This document shows, one piece after another, positions 1 through 4,902 of a stretch of 32,000 nt of DNA. Both the position numbers and the translations under genes were made by a program. The DNA is from Acaryochloris marina MBIC11017 (lineage in GTDB: Bacteria; Cyanobacteriota; Cyanobacteriia; Thermosynechococcales; Thermosynechococcaceae), in NCBI RefSeq assembly GCF_000018105.1, contig NC_009925.1, positions 360,001 to 392,000 of the forward strand, written 5' to 3'. Every line of letters begins with the position of its first letter. The first letter of the stretch is position 1. Under the pieces are notes generated by a model that worked only from the letters and a program-made list of their open reading frames with translations, did not search any database and had not been told where the DNA came from.

Positions 1-719
1 TCAGTTTTTAGGCTTTGGTAGTATTGCTGTTGTAGCTTTATTTTCAACAATCGATCAGAAAAAATTTCAAAGGATTCGGGACAGTATTTTGAAATATTCT
101 GGTGTAAATCAATAAATACATTGCAGTCTTGCTTCCTTTTCCCAAAAGATATTTCATGAGCAATAAAATCATAGTGAAAATTCTTAATTATCTTGTAGAG
201 AATCGAATAATTCCATCCTTGGTTTACATAAGGAGAACGATAATTAAGACTAATCAGTAGATTTACACAACGTTTAAAGTCTTTTCTTGAAACTAAAAAA
301 TCTAAGTCACAGAACTGTCTAGCATGAGTACCTCCGTAAGCAATCTGCGCAAGTGTTGGCCCTTTGAAAGGGATCACATCAATATCATGGGTTTCAAACA
401 GGTTCAATAACTGTTTAAGTTCTTCCACATGTAAAGTATTTTTTAAAGTGATTTCACAAGAATACTTTCTAAGGCTAGCAAGCAGATAATCTGGAATATT
501 TTTATGAGTATGTTGCTTAAGACATTGGTATACGGGTGGTATTACTTTATGGAACTTAGTTAACCTCAAAAAATGGTGCCAATCAATACTATGATGATCT
601 AGTATCGCATTAATTTTAAAATACCTAGTTTGTGATTTTAATTGAAGACAGGATAAAAGCAGCTTTTGCTCATTAGAGAATTCAGTAGAACTTCTTTTTT
701 TCAGTTTTATATAAATCAC
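1..719 (-). CDS. Nucleotidyltransferase family protein (PF14907-like), C-terminus outside the window
   Basis: Hand translation of the minus strand is open from a stop at about 735 down to position 1. There is no in-frame ATG, so GTG at 719-717 is the likely start. The product reads VIYIKLKKRSSTEFSNEQKLLLSCLQLK...HVEELKQLLNLFETHDIDVIPFKGPTLAQIAYGGTHARQFCDLDFLVSRKDF. The EQxLLLxC N-terminus and the PFKGP...Y......R...DLDxLV block are as I recall for the uncharacterised nucleotidyltransferase family. The ORF is absent from the track because it has no stop in the window. Confidence 0.7.
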   Translation of the reverse strand, partial: MIYIKLKKRSSTEFSNEQKLLLSCLQLKSQTRYFKINAILDHHSIDWHHFLRLTKFHKVIPPVYQCLKQHTHKNIPDYLLASLRKYSCEITLKNTLHVEELKQLLNLFETHDIDVIPFKGPTLAQIAYGGTHARQFCDLDFLVSRKDFKRCVNLLISLNYRSPYVNQGWNYSILYKIIKNFHYDFIAHEISFGKRKQDCNVFIDLHQNISKYCPESFEIFSDRLLKIKLQQQYYQSLKT

Positions 720-769
720 AAAACGATAGCAATATCAATTTCAATATACAAATAATCTAAAGATACTTA

Positions 770-1654
770 CTAACAAAGAGGCATTAATCTTCGATGATAT
801 CCTTGTTCATGAATCTGGATTTTCTCAACGGTTTTTGATATTGAATTTAGATCGAGAGGTCTTGTAAGTAAATAGACTGGTACCTTCTTAAGCAGGGCCG
901 TACATTGCTCAAAGTGAAGCTTCACAAACTGAGGATGAATTAGTTCCTTAGTTGCTCGAGAATTTTTTAAAATCTCTAGAAATGCTTGCTGTGGATTAAG
1001 CTTGATAATAGAAAATTCCTTCCCTTGATTAAGGACATAGATACTTGATAAGGGTAGGGCAGGAAATTCTTTTTGAGGAAGAAGGTGAACCTTCTTAGAA
1101 GAGTAGCCGTATATTGATTTAAGCTTATCAGGCTGATGTCCCATTGCAATAGCGGAATCAGGCCATAACTTGATCCGGGGGATGCTGGGTAGAACAGTTG
1201 GAAAATCGGAAGCAAATTGAATGGCTAATACATCGTCAGTAATTACCGAGCAATCATGATGATGGAATGCTTCTGCCAAAGTGGACTTGCCAGCCTTCGA
1301 ATGACCTAAAAATGCAGTAGCAGCATTTTGTAATACAACACAGCTTCCATGCAAAACAAGCTGACCTTGTTGGCGAAGAAGAATAGTAAAAATTGGCCCA
1401 TAGAGTATGGATCGAACTAAACCGATTTCGACATTAGCAAAAGGCTCAATGACTATTTCTTGTCCTTTATACACAAGGAAACGAAGAATGTTCGATATTC
1501 TACCTCGAAAACAGAAGCCAGCATCATGCTTATGATGGTATGTTGCTAATTTATCAATCTTTAGTACTACATCTGGGCGTCCATCTGCTTCAACAAGCTC
1601 AGGCAAGTAAATATCTGACTGAATACAGAAACCAAACACCGAATAGACTGGCAT
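770..1654 (-). CDS. HPr-kinase-related (HprK C-terminal-like) P-loop serine kinase homologue
   Basis: 294-aa ORF. LVLHGSCVVLQNAATAFLGHSKAGKSTLAEAFHHHDCSVITDDV matches the HprK-like pattern LHAS.V...G.ailF.G.SG.GKST.A.....G....DD. It is co-directional with the peptide gene upstream and the nucleotidyltransferase downstream. Confidence 0.75.
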   Translation of the reverse strand: MPVYSVFGFCIQSDIYLPELVEADGRPDVVLKIDKLATYHHKHDAGFCFRGRISNILRFLVYKGQEIVIEPFANVEIGLVRSILYGPIFTILLRQQGQLVLHGSCVVLQNAATAFLGHSKAGKSTLAEAFHHHDCSVITDDVLAIQFASDFPTVLPSIPRIKLWPDSAIAMGHQPDKLKSIYGYSSKKVHLLPQKEFPALPLSSIYVLNQGKEFSIIKLNPQQAFLEILKNSRATKELIHPQFVKLHFEQCTALLKKVPVYLLTRPLDLNSISKTVEKIQIHEQGYHRRLMPLC

Positions 1655-1689
1655 ATCAAGTTTATTGATATAGTTAATAGCTTGATATT

Positions 1690-1720
1690 AAAGAGGAAAG
1701 AACTAATTTCTTCCCTCTTT
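1690..1720 (-). terminator. Imperfect hairpin between the peptide gene and the kinase gene (possible attenuator or partial terminator)
   Basis: Plus strand aaagaggaaagaa-ctaa-tttcttccctcttt. The stem is about 13 bp with one bulge and a 4-nt loop. It lies 16 nt after the peptide stop codon and is followed on the minus strand by an A/T-rich stretch. Confidence 0.35.
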
Positions 1721-1735
1721 AATGGTAAATTCTGC

Positions 1736-1900
1736 CTAACCGTCATCAAGTTCCGGAGCAATTACAGCTGCAGATTCAAAATCATCATCAACTTCTTCAA
1801 ATTGTTCTTCAAACTCCCTAGCTTCATCATCAAATTCTTGTGTGATACCTACTAAAGAACCAAAGGCAGTCAACTTAGGTGTTGAAAATTTCCGTTTCAT
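1736..1900 (-). CDS. 54-aa candidate RiPP precursor: lasso-type leader followed by a hyper-acidic C-terminal region
   Basis: ATG at 1900-1898 and TAG at 1738-1736, with GGAG (1914-1911) 10 nt upstream. Product: MKRKFSTPKLTAFGSLVGITQEFDDEAREFEEQFEEVDDDFESAAVIAPELDDG. Residues 5-21 fit YxxPxLx3Gx5Tx, with F in place of Y. It is too short for the ORF track. Confidence 0.6.
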   Translation of the reverse strand: MKRKFSTPKLTAFGSLVGITQEFDDEAREFEEQFEEVDDDFESAAVIAPELDDG

Positions 1901-2100: not shown

Positions 2101-4278
2101 TTATTTTGAAATAACTTGCTTTAATAAATTTCTCTTTATTGCAGTCTTCTCTTGATTAGAGTTGTGACCATATCGCGAATAATAAGAATAAAGCTCATTC
2201 TTATTAAGAATTCCGTTAATAACCGTTCCCAAAACACTCAAATTTGAATGAATCAATAGCTCATGGGCTTTCTGAGCATACTCACGCTCTAAATGACCTG
2301 GGCGAGCAACTAATAGGATGCCATCAACTACTTTGCCAATAATAAGGGGATCAGCAACAGAAACCAGAGGTGGTGCATCAATAAGGATGTAGTCATAATG
2401 TTCTATTTGAACCTGTACAAAATTAGCAAATTGTTCAGATTCCAACATCGGTAGTGGATTGGATGAAATCCTTCCTGCAGTAATAATCTCTAAATTATCT
2501 GCAACCTTATGAGTTGGCAATTCTTGATGATAATTAAAATGTTTATTCAATAATATATGCGTTAAGCCTTCTTGATTCCCTAATTCCCAGATTTGATGTT
2601 GAGAGGCTAAGCGAATATCAGCATCAATCAATAAAACTCGATGGTTCATTTGAGCCAAAGAAACCGCTAAATTAGCACAAGTCGTACTTTTACCCTCTTG
2701 GTTTATGGCACTAGTCATCATTAATACTCTAGGAGAATGTTCCAAACCATGGAATTTCAAGCTAGATTGGAGCATTCTGTAAGCTTCACTTAAGTGAGAA
2801 GCAGGGTCGGACAAAGTTGGTAGTTTTAGGGATTCCGCTTCACTTTCGTCAAACAAAGGAATTTCACCTAACACTCGATAAGGGTAAACTTGTCTAATTT
2901 CATCTTTGGATTTTAGCTTTCGATCTATTCGTTCTAGAACATAGACTACCCCTGATGCCAAAAGTATACCTGCTAATCCGCCTCGCATCGCTGCTGAGAT
3001 AAAAGTGGTTTTAGATGGTTCCGGATCAGTCGCACTTTCTAAAATACTCACAGTCAAGGGAGACTGATTTTCAGTAACTTTCAACTCTTGAATTTGTTCA
3101 AGCAAATTTCGATAGGTAGAAGCAGATGCTTTTGCAGTTCTCTCTAGCTCATTCTGACGTTGTTCTAATTGAGGCAAATTTCGTGCTTGCTGACGATAAC
3201 TAGACAATTGTTGTCTCAATTTCAACTGTTGCTTAGACAACCCATTACGCCTAATATCCAGCTGGATAAGTTGGGAGCGCAAATCATCTTCTTGATTCGA
3301 GTCAAAATTTAACTGGGCATCAGACTGAGCAAATTTTTCTATTTTTTGGCTTAGCAATTGCTTTAATTGAGCCTGCCTCTCCAATAATTCCAAAACAGCG
3401 GGATGATCTTCTCTAAAGTTTGATTTTGCTTCCGCTAGGTCTTTGTCTATCTCCTCAAGGCTAGTTGATATATTCTTGTGGGCAGTTGAAATTCCTAATA
3501 TTGCTTGCTGTGGATTCACTTTTAGCATATTTTGCAGACTTAGCTGCTGAGTTTGCACCTCTACTAACTCCCTATCGATTTCATCTAGGGCTGTCTGGAG
3601 TTGAGAAAGGTTAGTTGCGTTAGCAGATTTAGCAATCTCTAGATCGGCAATCTGATAGGTTTCCTTAAATTTGCGCAATGCTGTTTCTGCAGAGTTAACG
3701 CGCTGCTTAACTTGAGGCAGTTGTTTTTCAATAAACGAAATTGCTGATTGGGTAGATGCTTGTTTCGACTTAGGAGTATTGTCAACATATTGCTGCATCA
3801 GCAAGTTAACAATATTTTTGGGAAATTCGCGATTATAACTTTTGAATCGAATCTGGACTACGTTAGTCTCATCAAATTGAGAAATATCTAACCCAGATTT
3901 AATTTGCTCTACGCTAGGCCGGGAGAACAGACCTTGACTTTCAATGGCCAAAGCAAGCATACTAAGCCGTCTGGGACTTTTCATAGTAAGGATTTCAGTG
4001 TCTAGTGACCTTTGCCAACGTAAACTAGATTGTTGCCGACTTTCATCATCGACTGCAGAATCTAGACCAATTAATTTTGAGCTCCGTTGACTTTCCTCAA
4101 ATTTCAGTTGCCCAACCGCTTCATAAATAGGTTTCTCTTGAAAAGCTTGCAGCAACGCAAGTGATAAAACGGTCAAAAAAGTAAATCCCGCAGGCAAACC
4201 TCGTCTCTTCAGCATCAACCAATAATTTGACAAATCAGACTGTTCAGAGGATTGAACAATATTTAACGGTTGATTCAT
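2101..4278 (-). CDS. Polysaccharide co-polymerase / tyrosine autokinase (Wzc/GumC family), paralogue 1
   Basis: 725 aa. It has an N-terminal TM segment, a Wzz-like region and a long coiled-coil periplasmic part, then a second TM segment. The CpsD/CapB-type P-loop domain follows (SAINQEGKSTTCANLAVSLA, LLIDADIRL, ILIDAPPL), with a C-terminal Tyr cluster ELYSYYSRYGH. Confidence 0.85.
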   Translation of the reverse strand: MNQPLNIVQSSEQSDLSNYWLMLKRRGLPAGFTFLTVLSLALLQAFQEKPIYEAVGQLKFEESQRSSKLIGLDSAVDDESRQQSSLRWQRSLDTEILTMKSPRRLSMLALAIESQGLFSRPSVEQIKSGLDISQFDETNVVQIRFKSYNREFPKNIVNLLMQQYVDNTPKSKQASTQSAISFIEKQLPQVKQRVNSAETALRKFKETYQIADLEIAKSANATNLSQLQTALDEIDRELVEVQTQQLSLQNMLKVNPQQAILGISTAHKNISTSLEEIDKDLAEAKSNFREDHPAVLELLERQAQLKQLLSQKIEKFAQSDAQLNFDSNQEDDLRSQLIQLDIRRNGLSKQQLKLRQQLSSYRQQARNLPQLEQRQNELERTAKASASTYRNLLEQIQELKVTENQSPLTVSILESATDPEPSKTTFISAAMRGGLAGILLASGVVYVLERIDRKLKSKDEIRQVYPYRVLGEIPLFDESEAESLKLPTLSDPASHLSEAYRMLQSSLKFHGLEHSPRVLMMTSAINQEGKSTTCANLAVSLAQMNHRVLLIDADIRLASQHQIWELGNQEGLTHILLNKHFNYHQELPTHKVADNLEIITAGRISSNPLPMLESEQFANFVQVQIEHYDYILIDAPPLVSVADPLIIGKVVDGILLVARPGHLEREYAQKAHELLIHSNLSVLGTVINGILNKNELYSYYSRYGHNSNQEKTAIKRNLLKQVISK

Positions 4279-4461: not shown

Positions 4462-4902
4462 TCAAGAATTATGTCTAAACCGCTTCATTAGATAACCTGG
4501 ATTTCTGGACTGTCTTAAGGTAAATTCACTTACTGATGGATTACCTCGAGGATAGCCTACACCTACAACCCGCCTCCAGATATCATTTGGAGGAGTGGAA
4601 ACTCGGTAGGTACGATCATTTTTGTATATGTAATACCATTTAACATCTTGACATTCTTCACACCAAAAAGCCTCTAACCAGTGGTTTCGTAAGACAACTT
4701 CAGAGTGAGTTTCTAGAATCCTTCGTGTAGCTTGTTTACCCATCCCATGTTGCTTAAGATGAGAAGTCTGGTTGGAATAAATTGAAAACTTTTGGCTGGC
4801 GCTATCCAAGTAGCACTTATGTATTGGGCAGTATATCGCTCTGCGCTTTGAGCGATTCCGATTGTGATCGCACCTTCTCCCCAAATTCGGCCTCCTTTGC
4901 AC
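4462..4902 (-). CDS. Hypothetical basic Cys/His-containing protein
   Basis: 146-aa ORF with a very basic N-terminus (RRPNLGRRCDHNRNRSKRR). The CPIH...CEEC spacing suggests a possible zinc site. I recognise no family. The true start may be an internal Met. Confidence 0.45.
   Translation of the reverse strand: MQRRPNLGRRCDHNRNRSKRRAIYCPIHKCYLDSASQKFSIYSNQTSHLKQHGMGKQATRRILETHSEVVLRNHWLEAFWCEECQDVKWYYIYKNDRTYRVSTPPNDIWRRVVGVGYPRGNPSVSEFTLRQSRNPGYLMKRFRHNS

What the first reader, a model, noticed from the sequence alone, without database searches (positions are those of the whole stretch)
1..1900. Unannotated 54-aa peptide with a lasso-type leader and hyper-acidic core, co-transcribed with an HprK-like kinase and a nucleotidyltransferase next to an EPS gene
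Seen in sequence: a minus-strand ORF too short for the ORF track (1900..1736) encodes MKRKFSTPKLTAFGSLVGITQEFDDEAREFEEQFEEVDDDFESAAVIAPELDDG. Residues 5-21 (FSTPKLTAFGSLVGITQ) fit the lasso-peptide leader consensus YxxPxLx3Gx5Tx at every constrained position. F replaces Y at -17, followed by P at -14, L at -12, G at -8 and T at -2.

Established knowledge, from memory: this motif is the one recognised by PqqD-like RRE (B1) proteins.

The predicted core is unlike any lasso core I know. It would begin with Glu instead of Gly/Ala/Ser/Cys, 16 of its 33 residues are Asp/Glu, and it ends in Gly. A Glu at core position 8 could still serve as a ring acceptor.

The next two co-directional genes are an HprK-like P-loop kinase (770-1654) and a PF14907-like nucleotidyltransferase (1-719, truncated). 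As I recall, a kinase plus nucleotidyltransferase accompanies the paeninodin-type lasso clusters, where the kinase phosphorylates the precursor. It also defines the TIGRFAMs 'HPr-rel-A' cassettes that sit beside EPS loci and have no described substrate.

Inference: this peptide may be the missing substrate of such a cassette, or a new RiPP class that uses a lasso-type leader. No RRE, leader peptidase or lasso cyclase is visible in the window. They could lie beyond coordinate 1.
Basis: partly seen in the sequence, partly recalled or inferred. Interest (0 to 1): 0.88.

Follow-up and report, generated by a model that had tools for sequence, protein, structure and literature searches.

The report
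Cyclase-less lasso-derived acidic peptide module
A small, very acidic peptide gene in the cyanobacterium Acaryochloris marina descends from a lasso-peptide precursor and keeps its kinase and nucleotidyltransferase partners. It has lost the enzymes that tie the lasso knot and now sits inside a sugar-coat (exopolysaccharide) gene cluster, much like the "linear phosphorylated peptides" recently described only in Bacillota.

Summary
The 54-aa ORF at 1900..1736(-) is real. It is conserved, under purifying selection, in at least seven Acaryochloris strains.

Its first 28 residues match the NCBIfam cyanobacterial lasso-precursor model NF033528 (E 4.7e-7, 29.7 bits, below the 33-bit cutoff). It occupies the slot just upstream of an HprK-like kinase, the slot that leader-bearing lasso precursors fill in about 40 canonical clusters.

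They do not. None is found in the 32-kb window or in 10 kb past coordinate 1, nor in any of the six other syntenic Acaryochloris loci. Of 57 reference loci with related kinases, 53 carry a lasso cyclase. A complete lasso cluster (cyclase AM1_1915) exists elsewhere in the same genome.

The conserved module is Wzc, peptide, hairpin, kinase, PF14907 nucleotidyltransferase and a GT4 glycosyltransferase, inside the fast-diverging part of an exopolysaccharide locus.

The most likely reading is a cyanobacterial, independently evolved analogue of Bacillota linear polyphosphorylated peptides (Popov 2026), lacking its own RRE and peptidase. The main rival is maturation in trans into a true lasso.

The kinase is not a TIGR04352/TIGR04355 "HPr-rel-A/B" member.

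Verdict: a new variant of a known kind, of moderate to high interest.

The parts
1736..1900 (-). Precursor-like peptide gene, 54 aa plus stop
   Evidence: ORF listing and translation. NF033528 lasso_cyano matches residues 1-28 at E 4.7e-7. Orthologues of 56-61 aa occur in six other Acaryochloris loci, with dN/dS 0.09-0.5 at dS 0.8-2.4.
1838..1900 (-). Leader region, residues 1-21 (MKRKFSTPKLTAFGSLVGITQ): F-17, P-14, L-12, G-8, T-2
   Evidence: The pattern MK.KF..P.LT.FG....[I/L]T. is invariant across 7 strains. It is the only motif match in the window.
1739..1837 (-). Predicted core, residues 22-54, 16 of 33 Asp/Glu, net charge about -15
   Evidence: E1, DD[F/I]ES and P[D/E]L are invariant in 7 strains. 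In 4 of 7 orthologues the N-terminal stretch E[F/I/Y]G..[G/S]PED aligns with the canonical ring AFGxxGxxD.
1772..1774 (-). Codon of Ser43 (core Ser22), the only Ser/Thr/Tyr in the core and invariant in the family; inferred phospho-acceptor
   Evidence: Alignment of 7 orthologues. The acceptor role is an inference from LppK, BsfK and PadeK, which phosphorylate Ser (PMC13381572, PMC10368454, PMC9266682).
1911..1914 (-). GGAG Shine-Dalgarno-like element, 10 nt before the ATG
   Evidence: Read from the sequence.
1687..1723 (-). Perfect 16-bp stem-loop between the peptide stop and the kinase start, with no T-run; probably a partial attenuator or transcript stabiliser
   Evidence: RNA fold of 1655-1745: -23 kcal/mol, z = -4.1. 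A strong stem-loop of different sequence occurs at the same place in six of the seven strains, with a weaker one in L075.
770..1654 (-). HprK-like (PEPCK-fold) peptide kinase, 294 aa. Catalytic motif kept: H102 (1349-1351), P-loop G117-T125 (1280-1306), D140-D141 (1232-1237)
   Evidence: The motif matches the H-G-G-K-S-D-D set shown to be essential in BsfK (PMC10368454). The precomputed Pfam entry is PF27840 ScmC (faint).
1..719 (-). PF14907 nucleotidyltransferase (PsmN/LppN-like). The N-terminal 239 of 390 aa lie in the window. The DxD metal site D138/D140 is at 300-308
   Evidence: Pfam E 7.4e-41 for the window part and 2.6e-60 for the full length from L001. The PsmN D134/D136 equivalent is essential (PMC6993621).
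2101..4278 (-). Wzc-like polysaccharide co-polymerase / BY tyrosine autokinase, 725 aa. It occupies the place held by B1-B2-C in related clusters
   Evidence: TIGR01007 E 9e-47. Gene maps of the related loci. It diverges together with the peptide module, 59-82% identity between strains.
4462..4902 (-). Cys-rich ORF 'f22' (93-146 aa, depending on the start codon) of unknown function. Its homologues directly precede lasso B1 in L018, L023 and L024
   Evidence: 45-47% identity to those ORFs. Gene maps. No Pfam, NCBIfam or PDB match.

Best explanation
The peptide is a descendant of a cyanobacterial kinase-associated lasso precursor. Its cluster lost the RRE (B1), the leader peptidase (B2) and the macrolactam cyclase (C), and became a fixed part of a Wzc-dependent exopolysaccharide locus in Acaryochloris.

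Shown:
- The leader, and remnants of the ring and tail, are homologous to canonical precursors.
- The peptide, hairpin, kinase, nucleotidyltransferase and GT4 order is the same in seven strains.
- The kinase and nucleotidyltransferase keep their catalytic residues.
- B1, B2 and C are absent in cis.
- The ORF is under purifying selection.

Inferred mechanism:
1. The peptide gene is transcribed with the downstream genes. The conserved stem-loop keeps peptide mRNA in excess over enzyme mRNA.
2. The HprK-like kinase (poly)phosphorylates the single invariant Ser of the core, in the DD[F/I]ES motif.
3. The PsmN/LppN-like PF14907 enzyme, possibly together with the adjacent GT4, adds sugar to the phosphate.
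4. The product stays linear. It is a highly anionic phospho(glyco)peptide that works with, or in, the exopolysaccharide layer.

By function this is a cyanobacterial counterpart of the Bacillota linear polyphosphorylated peptides (LPPs). It arose independently and has no RRE or signal-peptidase-like leader peptidase of its own. How the conserved leader is read is unresolved. It may be read by the kinase directly or by the B1 of the genome's separate lasso cluster. Whether the leader is removed is also unresolved.
For: - Leader homology: NF033528 at E 4.7e-7 for the window peptide, and 19-28 bits for three orthologues.
- About 40 of 57 reference loci have a leader-bearing small ORF immediately upstream of the kinase homologue.
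- Of those 57 loci, 53 have a cyclase, 48 a B1 and 38 a B2. All 7 Acaryochloris loci of this type have none.
- Family identities were confirmed: NF033535 cyclase 1063 bits, lasso PqqD, lasso B2.
- In a neighbour-joining tree the orphan kinases are monophyletic. They are sister to the Nostoc/Moorena-type lasso kinases, not to the kinase of A. marina's own lasso cluster.
- The f22 ORF is shared with L018, L023 and L024, where it precedes B1.
- Flanking genes are 87-100% identical between strains. Wzc, peptide, kinase and nucleotidyltransferase are only 39-82% identical, yet the ORF, its leader and the Ser motif persist, with dN/dS 0.09-0.5.
- A stem-loop is present at the same place in six of the seven strains, with a weaker one in L075.
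- The kinase H-K-D-D/P-loop motif and the nucleotidyltransferase DxD are intact.
- Precedents: the LPP family, embedded in capsule loci, with LppK polyphosphorylating a core Ser (PMC13381572); PsmN is needed to add hexose onto phospho-Ser (PMC6993621); BsfK phosphorylates an internal Ser (PMC10368454).
Against: - There is no biochemical or expression data for this locus.
- LPP systems keep a dedicated RRE and an SpI-like peptidase. Neither is detectable here (Pfam lists).
- BsfK works poorly without its B1, and the core alone is not a substrate (PMC10368454). A kinase acting without an RRE is therefore not the expected behaviour.
- The fully conserved T(-2) and P/L/G leader positions are those read by B1 and B2, which points towards processing by lasso enzymes in trans.
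- The MsbA-like ABC exporter is present in only 3 of 7 strains and is not specifically related to the lasso-adjacent exporters. Export is therefore unexplained.
- Paeninodin-type kinases act on a C-terminal Ser, which this peptide lacks.
Confidence: 0.45

Rival explanations
1. A true lasso peptide made in trans. The peptide would be an extra precursor that is bound, cleaved after Q21 and cyclised (E1 amine to E8 or D9) by B1/B2/C of the separate lasso cluster in the same genome (cyclase AM1_1915). The local kinase and nucleotidyltransferase would act as its private tailoring enzymes.
For: - The same genomes carry a complete cluster: PqqD, B2, oxygenases, kinase, cyclase, 46-aa precursors and an ABC transporter. 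This holds for MBIC11017 (P0177 = ABW26933.1 on the 6,503,724-bp chromosome), for AP026075 and for NIES-2412.
- All leader positions read by B1 and B2 (P-14, L-12, G-8, T-2) are invariant in 7 of 7 orthologues.
- An acidic residue is present at core position 7-9 in every orthologue. Four of seven keep E-x-G-x-x-[G/S]-P-E-D, which aligns with the canonical ring AFGxxGxxD.
- Asp, Asn, Phe and Thr occur at position 1 in other putative precursors of this kinase-associated group.
Against: - The module comes from a different kinase lineage than the resident cluster.
- Phe replaces the Tyr that gives high-affinity RRE binding in 7 of 7 orphans, against 1 of 39 canonical peptides (the role of Tyr is from PMC13381572).
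- Glu at position 1 is seen in none of 39 canonical peptides.
- The conserved 'ED[R/S]ERE' block sits at core positions 6-11 in some orthologues and 8-13 in others, so ring size is not conserved in register.
- With about 48% acidic residues, an acceptor at positions 7-9 is expected by chance.
- The canonical cluster appears to be present in every Acaryochloris genome seen, so its co-occurrence with the orphan is uninformative.
Confidence: 0.27
2. Not a modified natural product at all. The peptide would be a small acidic cytoplasmic protein that regulates or scaffolds exopolysaccharide assembly, for example by binding basic patches of Wzc. The leader-like N-terminus would have been re-used as a protein-interaction motif. 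The kinase might phosphorylate it as a switch.
For: - The core is conserved rather than hypervariable.
- The peptide diverges in step with Wzc, 59-82% against 48-65% identity.
- No exporter is conserved.
- No peptidase or RRE is present in cis.
Against: - Tight linkage to a PF14907 enzyme. The only known role of that family is sugar decoration of phosphorylated peptides (PMC6993621).
- The leader keeps exactly the RiPP-recognition positions.
- A precursor-type stem-loop follows the ORF.
- There is no direct evidence for any Wzc interaction.
Confidence: 0.15
3. An evolutionary relic: a decaying precursor gene left behind after B1-B2-C were lost, with no function of its own.
For: The cluster has clearly lost its core lasso enzymes.
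Against: - An intact ORF, start codon and SD element persist in 7 strains although synonymous sites are near saturation (dS 0.8-2.4). dN/dS is 0.09-0.5 in both leader and core.
- Partner enzymes keep their catalytic residues.
Confidence: 0.03
4. The substrate of a TIGRFAMs 'HPr-rel-A' cassette (HprK-related kinase A plus a PqqD-family protein).
For: The kinase fold and a neighbouring exopolysaccharide locus resemble that cassette in general terms.
Against: - TIGR04352 scores 14.1 bits and TIGR04355 18.5 bits, against cutoffs of 200.
- No PqqD-family gene is present in 42 kb.
- The nearest relatives of the kinase are lasso-cluster kinases.
Confidence: 0.02

Closest known systems
Linear polyphosphorylated peptides (LPP; lppA-K-B-S-D-N) of Bacillota (Popov et al., Nat Commun 2026, PMC13381572)
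   Same: - A precursor with a lasso-like xxPxL leader.
- An HprK-like kinase and an 'uncharacterised NTP transferase'.
- No macrolactam cyclase.
- Embedded in polysaccharide or capsule loci.
- Co-resident with a phosphorylated-lasso cluster in the same genome.
- An MsbA-like pump is present in some strains.
   Different: - No discrete RRE and no SpI/SipW-like leader peptidase.
- The leader lacks the extended YxxPxVLxHQxIxFETxxS consensus and has Phe instead of Tyr.
- The core is hyper-acidic and conserved, not variable.
- The phylum is Cyanobacteria, whereas the authors state that LPPs are restricted to Bacillota.
- The kinase tree indicates an independent origin from a cyanobacterial lasso cluster.
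Cyanobacterial kinase-associated lasso clusters (NF033528 precursors, NF033535 cyclase; e.g. the Nostoc, Calothrix and Moorena loci L010-L024)
   Same: - Homologous leader, the same peptide-then-kinase order, and a homologous kinase (37-44% identity).
- PF14907 and the f22 ORF are also present in the Moorena-type loci L018/L023/L024.
- Remnants of the ring (xFGxxGxxD) and tail (S..V[V/I].P) motifs survive.
   Different: - B1, B2 and C are absent.
- The peptide scores below the NF033528 cutoff (29.7 against 33 bits).
- Glu at position 1, Phe at -17, and 48% acidic residues against 3-22%.
Paeninodin / pseudomycoidin / Bsf phosphorylated (and glycosylated) lasso peptides
   Same: - The same kind of tailoring pair. 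The HprK-like kinase acts on the linear precursor, and the PsmN-like nucleotidyltransferase is needed for hexose on the phosphate.
- The catalytic H-K-D-D motif is conserved.
   Different: - Those are threaded macrolactams with B1/B2/C in cis.
- The acceptor Ser is C-terminal (paeninodin, pseudomycoidin) or at core position 3 (Bsf). Here the only Ser is at core position 22 of 33.
TIGRFAMs HPr-rel-A / HprK-related kinase B systems (TIGR04352, TIGR04355) and SynChlorMet ScmC (PF27840)
   Same: The same broad HprK/PEPCK-fold kinase superfamily, and association with PqqD-type peptide systems in general.
   Different: Scores are far below the family cutoffs, and no PqqD partner is present. These are related folds, not the same system.

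Membership tests
Lasso peptide biosynthetic gene cluster (canonical) | Asn-synthetase-like macrolactam cyclase (C) in the cluster | tested here: not met
   A custom HMM built from 53 cyclases gives no hit at E<10 in the window, L001, L007, L067, L069 or L071, and none at E<1e-5 in L075-L077. A cyclase exists elsewhere in the genome (AM1_1915).
Lasso peptide biosynthetic gene cluster (canonical) | PqqD-like RRE (B1) and transglutaminase-like leader peptidase (B2) | tested here: not met
   The B1 and B2 HMMs give no hits in any of the 7 Acaryochloris loci. The family identity of the HMM seed sequences was confirmed.
Lasso peptide biosynthetic gene cluster (canonical) | Precursor with a YxxPxLx3Gx5Tx leader and an Asp/Glu acceptor at core position 7-9 | tested here: met
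   All constrained leader positions are present, with F for Y, and Glu is at core position 8. The acceptor criterion carries little weight in a core that is 48% acidic.
NF033528 lasso_cyano precursor family | Score at or above the curated cutoff of 33 bits | tested here: not met
   29.7 bits, E 4.7e-7, over residues 1-28 only. Orthologues score 19-28 bits, and a Nostoc precursor scores 45.6 bits. The leader is homologous, but the peptide is not a member by the curated threshold.
Linear polyphosphorylated peptides (LPP, PMC13381572) | HprK-like kinase plus uncharacterised NTP transferase, no cyclase, located in a polysaccharide locus | tested here: met
Linear polyphosphorylated peptides (LPP, PMC13381572) | Discrete RRE (LppB) and SpI/SipW-like leader peptidase (LppS) | tested here: not met
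   No PqqD hit. No signal-peptidase family appears among the Pfam hits of any called gene in the 7 loci. The ORFs without a Pfam entry were rescanned and gave none.
Linear polyphosphorylated peptides (LPP, PMC13381572) | Leader consensus YxxPxVLxHQxIxFETxxS | tested here: not met
   Read directly from the sequence: only the xxPxL part is shared, and the Acaryochloris consensus is MK.KF..P.LT.FG....[I/L]T.E.
Linear polyphosphorylated peptides (LPP, PMC13381572) | Polyphosphorylation of a core Ser by the kinase | not testable with these tools
   Needs mass spectrometry. The only sequence-level support is one invariant core Ser and intact kinase catalytic residues.
HPr-rel-A / HprK-related kinase B systems (TIGR04352 / TIGR04355) | Kinase scores above the family cutoff (200 bits) and has a PqqD-family partner | tested here: not met
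   14.1 and 18.5 bits. No PqqD gene.
Lasso-tailoring HprK-like kinases (PadeK/ThcoK/BsfK type) | HprK/PEPCK P-loop fold with the conserved His, GxxGxGKS and Asp-Asp motif, and a position next to a leader-bearing precursor | tested here: met
   H102, G117-T125 and D140-D141 are invariant or nearly invariant in alignments A1 and A2. PDB profile hits to HprK. Foldseek hits to PEPCK and HprK/P. Gene neighbourhoods.
PF14907 NTP_transf_5 (PsmN/LppN-like) | Pfam score above the gathering threshold, with the DxD metal site | tested here: met
   140.8 bits for the window part and 204.5 bits for the full length, against a 31.2-bit cutoff. D138-L-D140 is present.

The most novel reading that the evidence does not exclude
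The acidic peptide is a ribosomally made, phospho-Ser-primed component of the exopolysaccharide itself. After phosphorylation, the PF14907 enzyme and the locus glycosyltransferases would build or attach sugar chains on the phosphate. Acaryochloris would then make a peptide-anchored (phosphoglycosylated) polysaccharide whose peptide part co-diversifies with the serotype-like variable region. This would be produced without any RRE, leader peptidase or cyclase. It would give the kinase + nucleotidyltransferase peptide systems that sit in polysaccharide loci of both Bacillota and Cyanobacteria a physiological role. It would also define a new kind of glycoconjugate.
Probability: 0.1. Interest if true: 0.88.

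Novelty: new variant of a known kind. Interest (0 to 1): 0.6.

Why it matters
Cyclase-less derivatives of phosphorylated lasso pathways were first reported in 2026 and were described as confined to Bacillota. Their final products and biological role are still unknown.

This locus shows the same outcome arising independently in a cyanobacterium. The precursor, kinase and nucleotidyltransferase are kept, the knot-forming enzymes are lost, and the module again sits inside a polysaccharide locus. That recurrence argues for a real functional link between these phosphopeptides and cell-surface polysaccharides.

The Acaryochloris version has practical advantages as a test system:
- It has a single candidate acceptor Ser.
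- Its core is conserved.
- It has no RRE or peptidase in cis.
- A canonical lasso cluster is available in the same cultured, sequenced strain (MBIC11017).

It is therefore a compact system for asking how leader recognition works without a dedicated RRE, whether cross-talk between pathways occurs, and what the PF14907 enzyme really does.

Tried and rejected
1. A word-index homology search with the peptide found only the peptide itself. An exhaustive phmmer search of 1.84 billion representatives found one true relative, P0195, plus low-complexity noise. The family could only be traced through the kinase.
2. The search for related loci with the 24-sequence kinase alignment failed because no stretch was conserved enough. 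The 12-sequence alignment worked.
3. A paper search for 'ScmC' together with 'lasso' returned only LASSO-regression papers. The name ScmC was later explained by the NCBIfam entry 'SynChlorMet cassette protein ScmD'.
4. The JBC 2016 paeninodin kinase paper (PMC4919450) is not held. A review and the Bsf paper were used instead.
5. The idea that the MsbA-like ABC transporter is the lasso-type exporter of the module was rejected. It is absent from 4 of 7 strains, and its best matches are second, non-adjacent ABC genes, matching over the ATPase domain only.
6. The idea that f22 or the 193-aa and 520-aa unknown ORFs hide an RRE or a peptidase found no support in Pfam, NCBIfam, PDB or the custom HMMs.
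7. The idea that the kinase N-terminal domain is a fused RRE was rejected. The whole protein aligns with PEPCK/HprK folds, and the same domain is present in kinases that have a B1 next door.
8. A PADLOC scan for a defence-system reading gave nothing meaningful.
9. The consensus scan found no sigma-70-like promoter in the intergenic region directly upstream of the ATG and no canonical intrinsic terminator.


Full report
**1. What is in the sequence**

The minus-strand ORF 1900..1736 encodes MKRKFSTPKLTAFGSLVGITQEFDDEAREFEEQFEEVDDDFESAAVIAPELDDG. A GGAG lies 10 nt before the ATG.

Residues 5-21 fit [Y/F]xxPxLx3Gx5Tx. This is the only match to that pattern in six-frame translation of the 32-kb window; shuffled sequence gives a mean of 0.095 matches.

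NCBIfam NF033528 ('lasso_cyano', lasso peptide) aligns to residues 1-28 with E 4.7e-7 and 29.7 bits. That is just under its curated cutoff of 33 bits.

The predicted core has 16 Asp/Glu in 33 residues, one Arg, and a single hydroxyl residue, Ser43.

Downstream and co-directional are two genes:
- A 294-aa kinase (770-1654). It gives only weak single-sequence hits: TIGR04355 18.5 bits and TIGR04352 14.1 bits against cutoffs of 200, and Hpr_kinase_C at E 0.12. A family profile finds HPr kinase/phosphorylase as the best PDB match at E 1.7e-7. Its AlphaFold model (mean pLDDT 90.3) matches PEP carboxykinase and HprK/P folds.
- A PF14907 nucleotidyltransferase (1-719, cut by the window edge), E 7.4e-41.

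Upstream is a Wzc-type tyrosine autokinase / chain-length protein at 2101-4278.

The sequence comes from the Acaryochloris marina chromosome of 6,503,724 bp. NCBI already lists the peptide as a hypothetical protein.

**2. What lies beyond coordinate 1**

Contigs carrying identical proteins extend the locus. After the 390-aa nucleotidyltransferase come, in order:
- a GT4 glycosyltransferase;
- an MsbA/PglK-like ABC exporter;
- a sulfotransferase;
- further glycosyltransferases;
- a 520-aa polytopic membrane protein.

No RRE, B2 protease or cyclase is present. I built HMMs from the cyclase, B1 and B2 families found next to related kinases. Their identities were confirmed as NF033535 lasso cyclase (1063 bits), lasso PqqD chaperone and lasso B2. 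These HMMs find nothing in the window, in L001 or L007, or in six other syntenic loci.

**3. Where the module comes from**

The kinase has relatives in 57 loci of reference genomes, mostly cyanobacteria, together with Rhodothermales, Sphingomonas and others.
- 53 of these loci carry a lasso cyclase, 48 a B1, 38 a B2, 47 an ABC transporter and 22 a PF14907 gene.
- The typical order is B1, B2, C, [A], kinase, ABC, and sometimes a nucleotidyltransferase.
- In about 40 loci one to three small ORFs with MKKxYxxPxLxxxGxxxxxTx leaders lie directly upstream of the kinase. One Nostoc example scores 45.6 bits on NF033528.

The window peptide therefore sits in the precursor slot of a kinase-type lasso cluster.

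In a neighbour-joining tree, the kinases of the Acaryochloris cyclase-less loci form one clade. That clade is sister to the Nostoc/Calothrix/Moorena lasso kinases. It is distant from the kinase of A. marina's own lasso cluster.

A Cys-rich ORF of unknown function (window 4462-4902) is 45-47% identical to ORFs that directly precede B1 in the Moorena producens 3L locus and two related loci. In Acaryochloris the Wzc gene lies between this ORF and the peptide. The simplest history is a Moorena/Nostoc-type lasso cluster in which B1-B2-C was lost and Wzc now takes their place.

**4. Conservation**

Six further Acaryochloris loci, with kinases 49-64% identical, share one order. It runs histidine kinase, response regulator, epimerase, the Cys-rich ORF, Wzc, small ORF, kinase, PF14907, GT4, and then variable polysaccharide genes.

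Their small ORFs of 56-61 aa are clearly orthologous. Invariant positions are:
- MK.KF..P.LT.FG....[I/L]T in the leader;
- then E;
- later DD[F/I]ES..[V/I][V/I].P[D/E]L.

Pairwise dS is 0.8-2.4, near saturation, while dN/dS is 0.09-0.5 in both leader and core. The gene is therefore maintained by selection and is not a relic.

Flanking genes are 87-100% identical to those of the window strain. The module genes are much less so:

| Gene | Identity to the window strain |
|---|---|
| Wzc | 59-82% |
| Peptide | 48-65% |
| Kinase | 49-64% |
| Nucleotidyltransferase | 39-64% |
| GT4 | 22-94% |

The module thus belongs to the fast-diverging, serotype-like part of the polysaccharide locus.

A strong stem-loop separates the peptide and kinase genes in six of the seven strains, although its sequence differs between them; L075 has only a weaker one. 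In the window it is a perfect 16-bp stem at 1687-1723 (z = -4.1 for the folded region). It has no T-run, and the terminator scan does not call it. Its position is typical of elements that raise precursor mRNA over enzyme mRNA; that role is inferred.

An exhaustive HMMER search of 1.84 billion cluster representatives found only one further relative, which is of the same family. At this sensitivity the acidic family is confined to the Acaryochloris lineage.

**5. How it differs from canonical precursors**

I compared it with 39 distinct leader-bearing peptides upstream of related kinases.

| Feature | 39 canonical peptides | 7 Acaryochloris acidic peptides |
|---|---|---|
| Residue at -17 | Tyr 38, Phe 1 | Phe in all 7 |
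| Core residue 1 | A 20, D 6, G 5, F 3, S 2, N 2, T 1 | Glu in all 7 |
| Acidic fraction of core | 0.03-0.22 | 0.48 (window peptide) |

Traces of the ancestral core remain. In four orthologues, E[F/I/Y]G[D/E][N/S][G/S]PED aligns with the canonical ring AFGxxGxxD, including the Asp9 acceptor. The tail ES..VV.P resembles the canonical GS(xDG)V[L/V][I/V]P. In the window peptide and its two closest orthologues the ring-like stretch has diverged, and the conserved acidic block shifts register by two residues.

**6. Enzymes look active**

The kinase keeps His102, the G117-x-x-x-x-G-K-S-T P-loop and Asp140-Asp141; these are invariant or nearly so across the family. They correspond to the residues shown by mutagenesis to matter in BsfK and in the paeninodin-type kinases (PMC10368454, PMC9266682).

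The nucleotidyltransferase keeps D138-x-D140. This is the counterpart of PsmN D134/D136, whose mutation abolishes hexose addition to phospho-Ser (PMC6993621).

**7. The rest of the genome**

A search with an Acaryochloris lasso cyclase found a cluster whose members include ABW26933.1 (AM1_1915) on the same 6,503,724-bp chromosome. Copies also occur in the AP026075 and NIES-2412 genomes, which also carry the acidic-peptide module.

That locus has PqqD, B2, a 2OG-oxygenase, a 307-aa ORF, an HprK-like kinase, a JmjC-like gene, the cyclase, one or two 46-aa precursors and an ABC transporter. The precursors read MKKFYDAPQLRTYGSVEDMTK|NAPSINAID...DDITS, with a C-terminal Ser. The locus is itself followed by GT, Wzc and Wzx genes. 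Lasso machinery is therefore available in trans.

**8. Comparison with what is known**

- Popov et al. 2026 (PMC13381572) described 'linear polyphosphorylated peptides' in Bacillota. These clusters sit within capsule loci. They encode a precursor with a lasso-like YxxP leader, the HprK-like kinase LppK, a discrete RRE, an SpI/SipW-like leader peptidase, an MsbA-like pump and an NTP transferase, but no cyclase. LppK polyphosphorylates core Ser3. The final product and role are unknown, and the authors state that LPPs and paeninodins are restricted to Bacillota.
- Zyubko et al. 2019 showed that PsmN is required to add hexoses onto the phosphorylated Ser of pseudomycoidin.
- Duan et al. 2023 showed that BsfK phosphorylates an internal Ser. 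B1 strongly stimulates this, and the core alone is not a substrate.

The Acaryochloris module matches LPPs in logic: it has no cyclase, it has a kinase and an NTP transferase, and it lies in a polysaccharide locus. It fails the LPP membership tests for the RRE, the SpI peptidase and the extended leader consensus, and it has an independent cyanobacterial origin. It is not a TIGR04352/TIGR04355 system. No paper in the library links Acaryochloris lasso-type genes to this locus.

**9. Interpretation**

- Best supported (about 0.45): a lasso-derived precursor that is now the substrate of the cis-encoded kinase and PF14907 enzyme. The product would be a linear, extremely anionic phospho(glyco)peptide connected with the exopolysaccharide. 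The steps after transcription are inferred, not shown.
- Main rival (about 0.27): the peptide is still cut and cyclised by the AM1_1915-cluster enzymes in trans. This is favoured by the perfectly kept P/L/G/T leader positions. It is disfavoured by Phe at -17, Glu at position 1, the shifting register of the acidic block and the different lineage of the module.
- An intracellular regulatory role (about 0.15) cannot be excluded.
- A relic is essentially excluded by the selection analysis.
- The HPr-rel-A idea is excluded by family scores.

**10. Verdict**

This is a new variant of a recently described kind, not a new RiPP class. Its value lies in three points: independent recurrence across phyla of cyclase-less phosphopeptide modules inside polysaccharide loci; the absence of any RRE or peptidase in cis; and a simple, conserved, single-Ser substrate in a cultivable strain.

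Noticed in passing
window 4462-4902 (-); L018 5655-6098, L023 4810-5265, L024 6180-6632: A Cys-rich 140-150 aa ORF (CPIHxCYLDS ... EAFWCxxCQ..KWYY) has no Pfam, NCBIfam or PDB match. It is conserved (45-47% identity) immediately upstream of lasso B1 genes in Moorena-type clusters and upstream of Wzc in all Acaryochloris acidic-peptide loci. It may be a regulator or an unrecognised accessory protein of these clusters.
   Followed up: partly
L066 about 9747-11005 (Abditibacteriaceae MAG); L055 9821-11575 (Legionellaceae MAG): L066 has a leader-bearing peptide (KKTYSAPDLTVYGSMKQMTQ...) directly upstream of a kinase homologue, with no B1, B2, cyclase, nucleotidyltransferase or ABC gene within +-10 kb. 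It may be a second, independent cyclase-less case. L055 has the kinase, B1 and B2 but no cyclase.
   Followed up: no
L072 5374-14918 and L074 4318-13862 (A. marina, elsewhere on the chromosome): The canonical A. marina lasso cluster carries a 2OG-Fe(II) oxygenase and a JmjC/cupin gene besides the kinase. It has one or two 46-aa precursors ending in Ser, whose predicted core starts with Asn. It is directly followed by GT-Wzc-Wzx polysaccharide genes. Both lasso-type modules of this genome therefore abut Wzc-type loci.
   Followed up: partly
window 10132-10599 (-) and the adjacent 133-aa ORF (L001 658-1523): A PIN-like 155-aa ORF (Pfam PIN, E 2e-4) is paired with a 133-aa ORF, in toxin-antitoxin-like fashion. 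The pair is present in this strain between the 192-aa ORF and the histidine kinase gene, but is absent from the same place in L067 and L069.
   Followed up: no
L013, L016, L017, L020, L031 (upstream of the kinase); L010, L014, L021, L037, L047, L051, L052: Several Nostoc/Anabaena loci carry three tandem precursor genes with nearly identical leaders and variable cores. Several other loci carry two kinases or two complete lasso clusters side by side.
   Followed up: no
L071 9076-9630, L077 9088-9639: In two strains a DUF218 gene is inserted between Wzc and the peptide gene. In four strains the ABC exporter of the window type is replaced by a Wzx flippase further downstream. The only constant core of the module is therefore peptide, kinase, nucleotidyltransferase and GT4.
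   Followed up: partly
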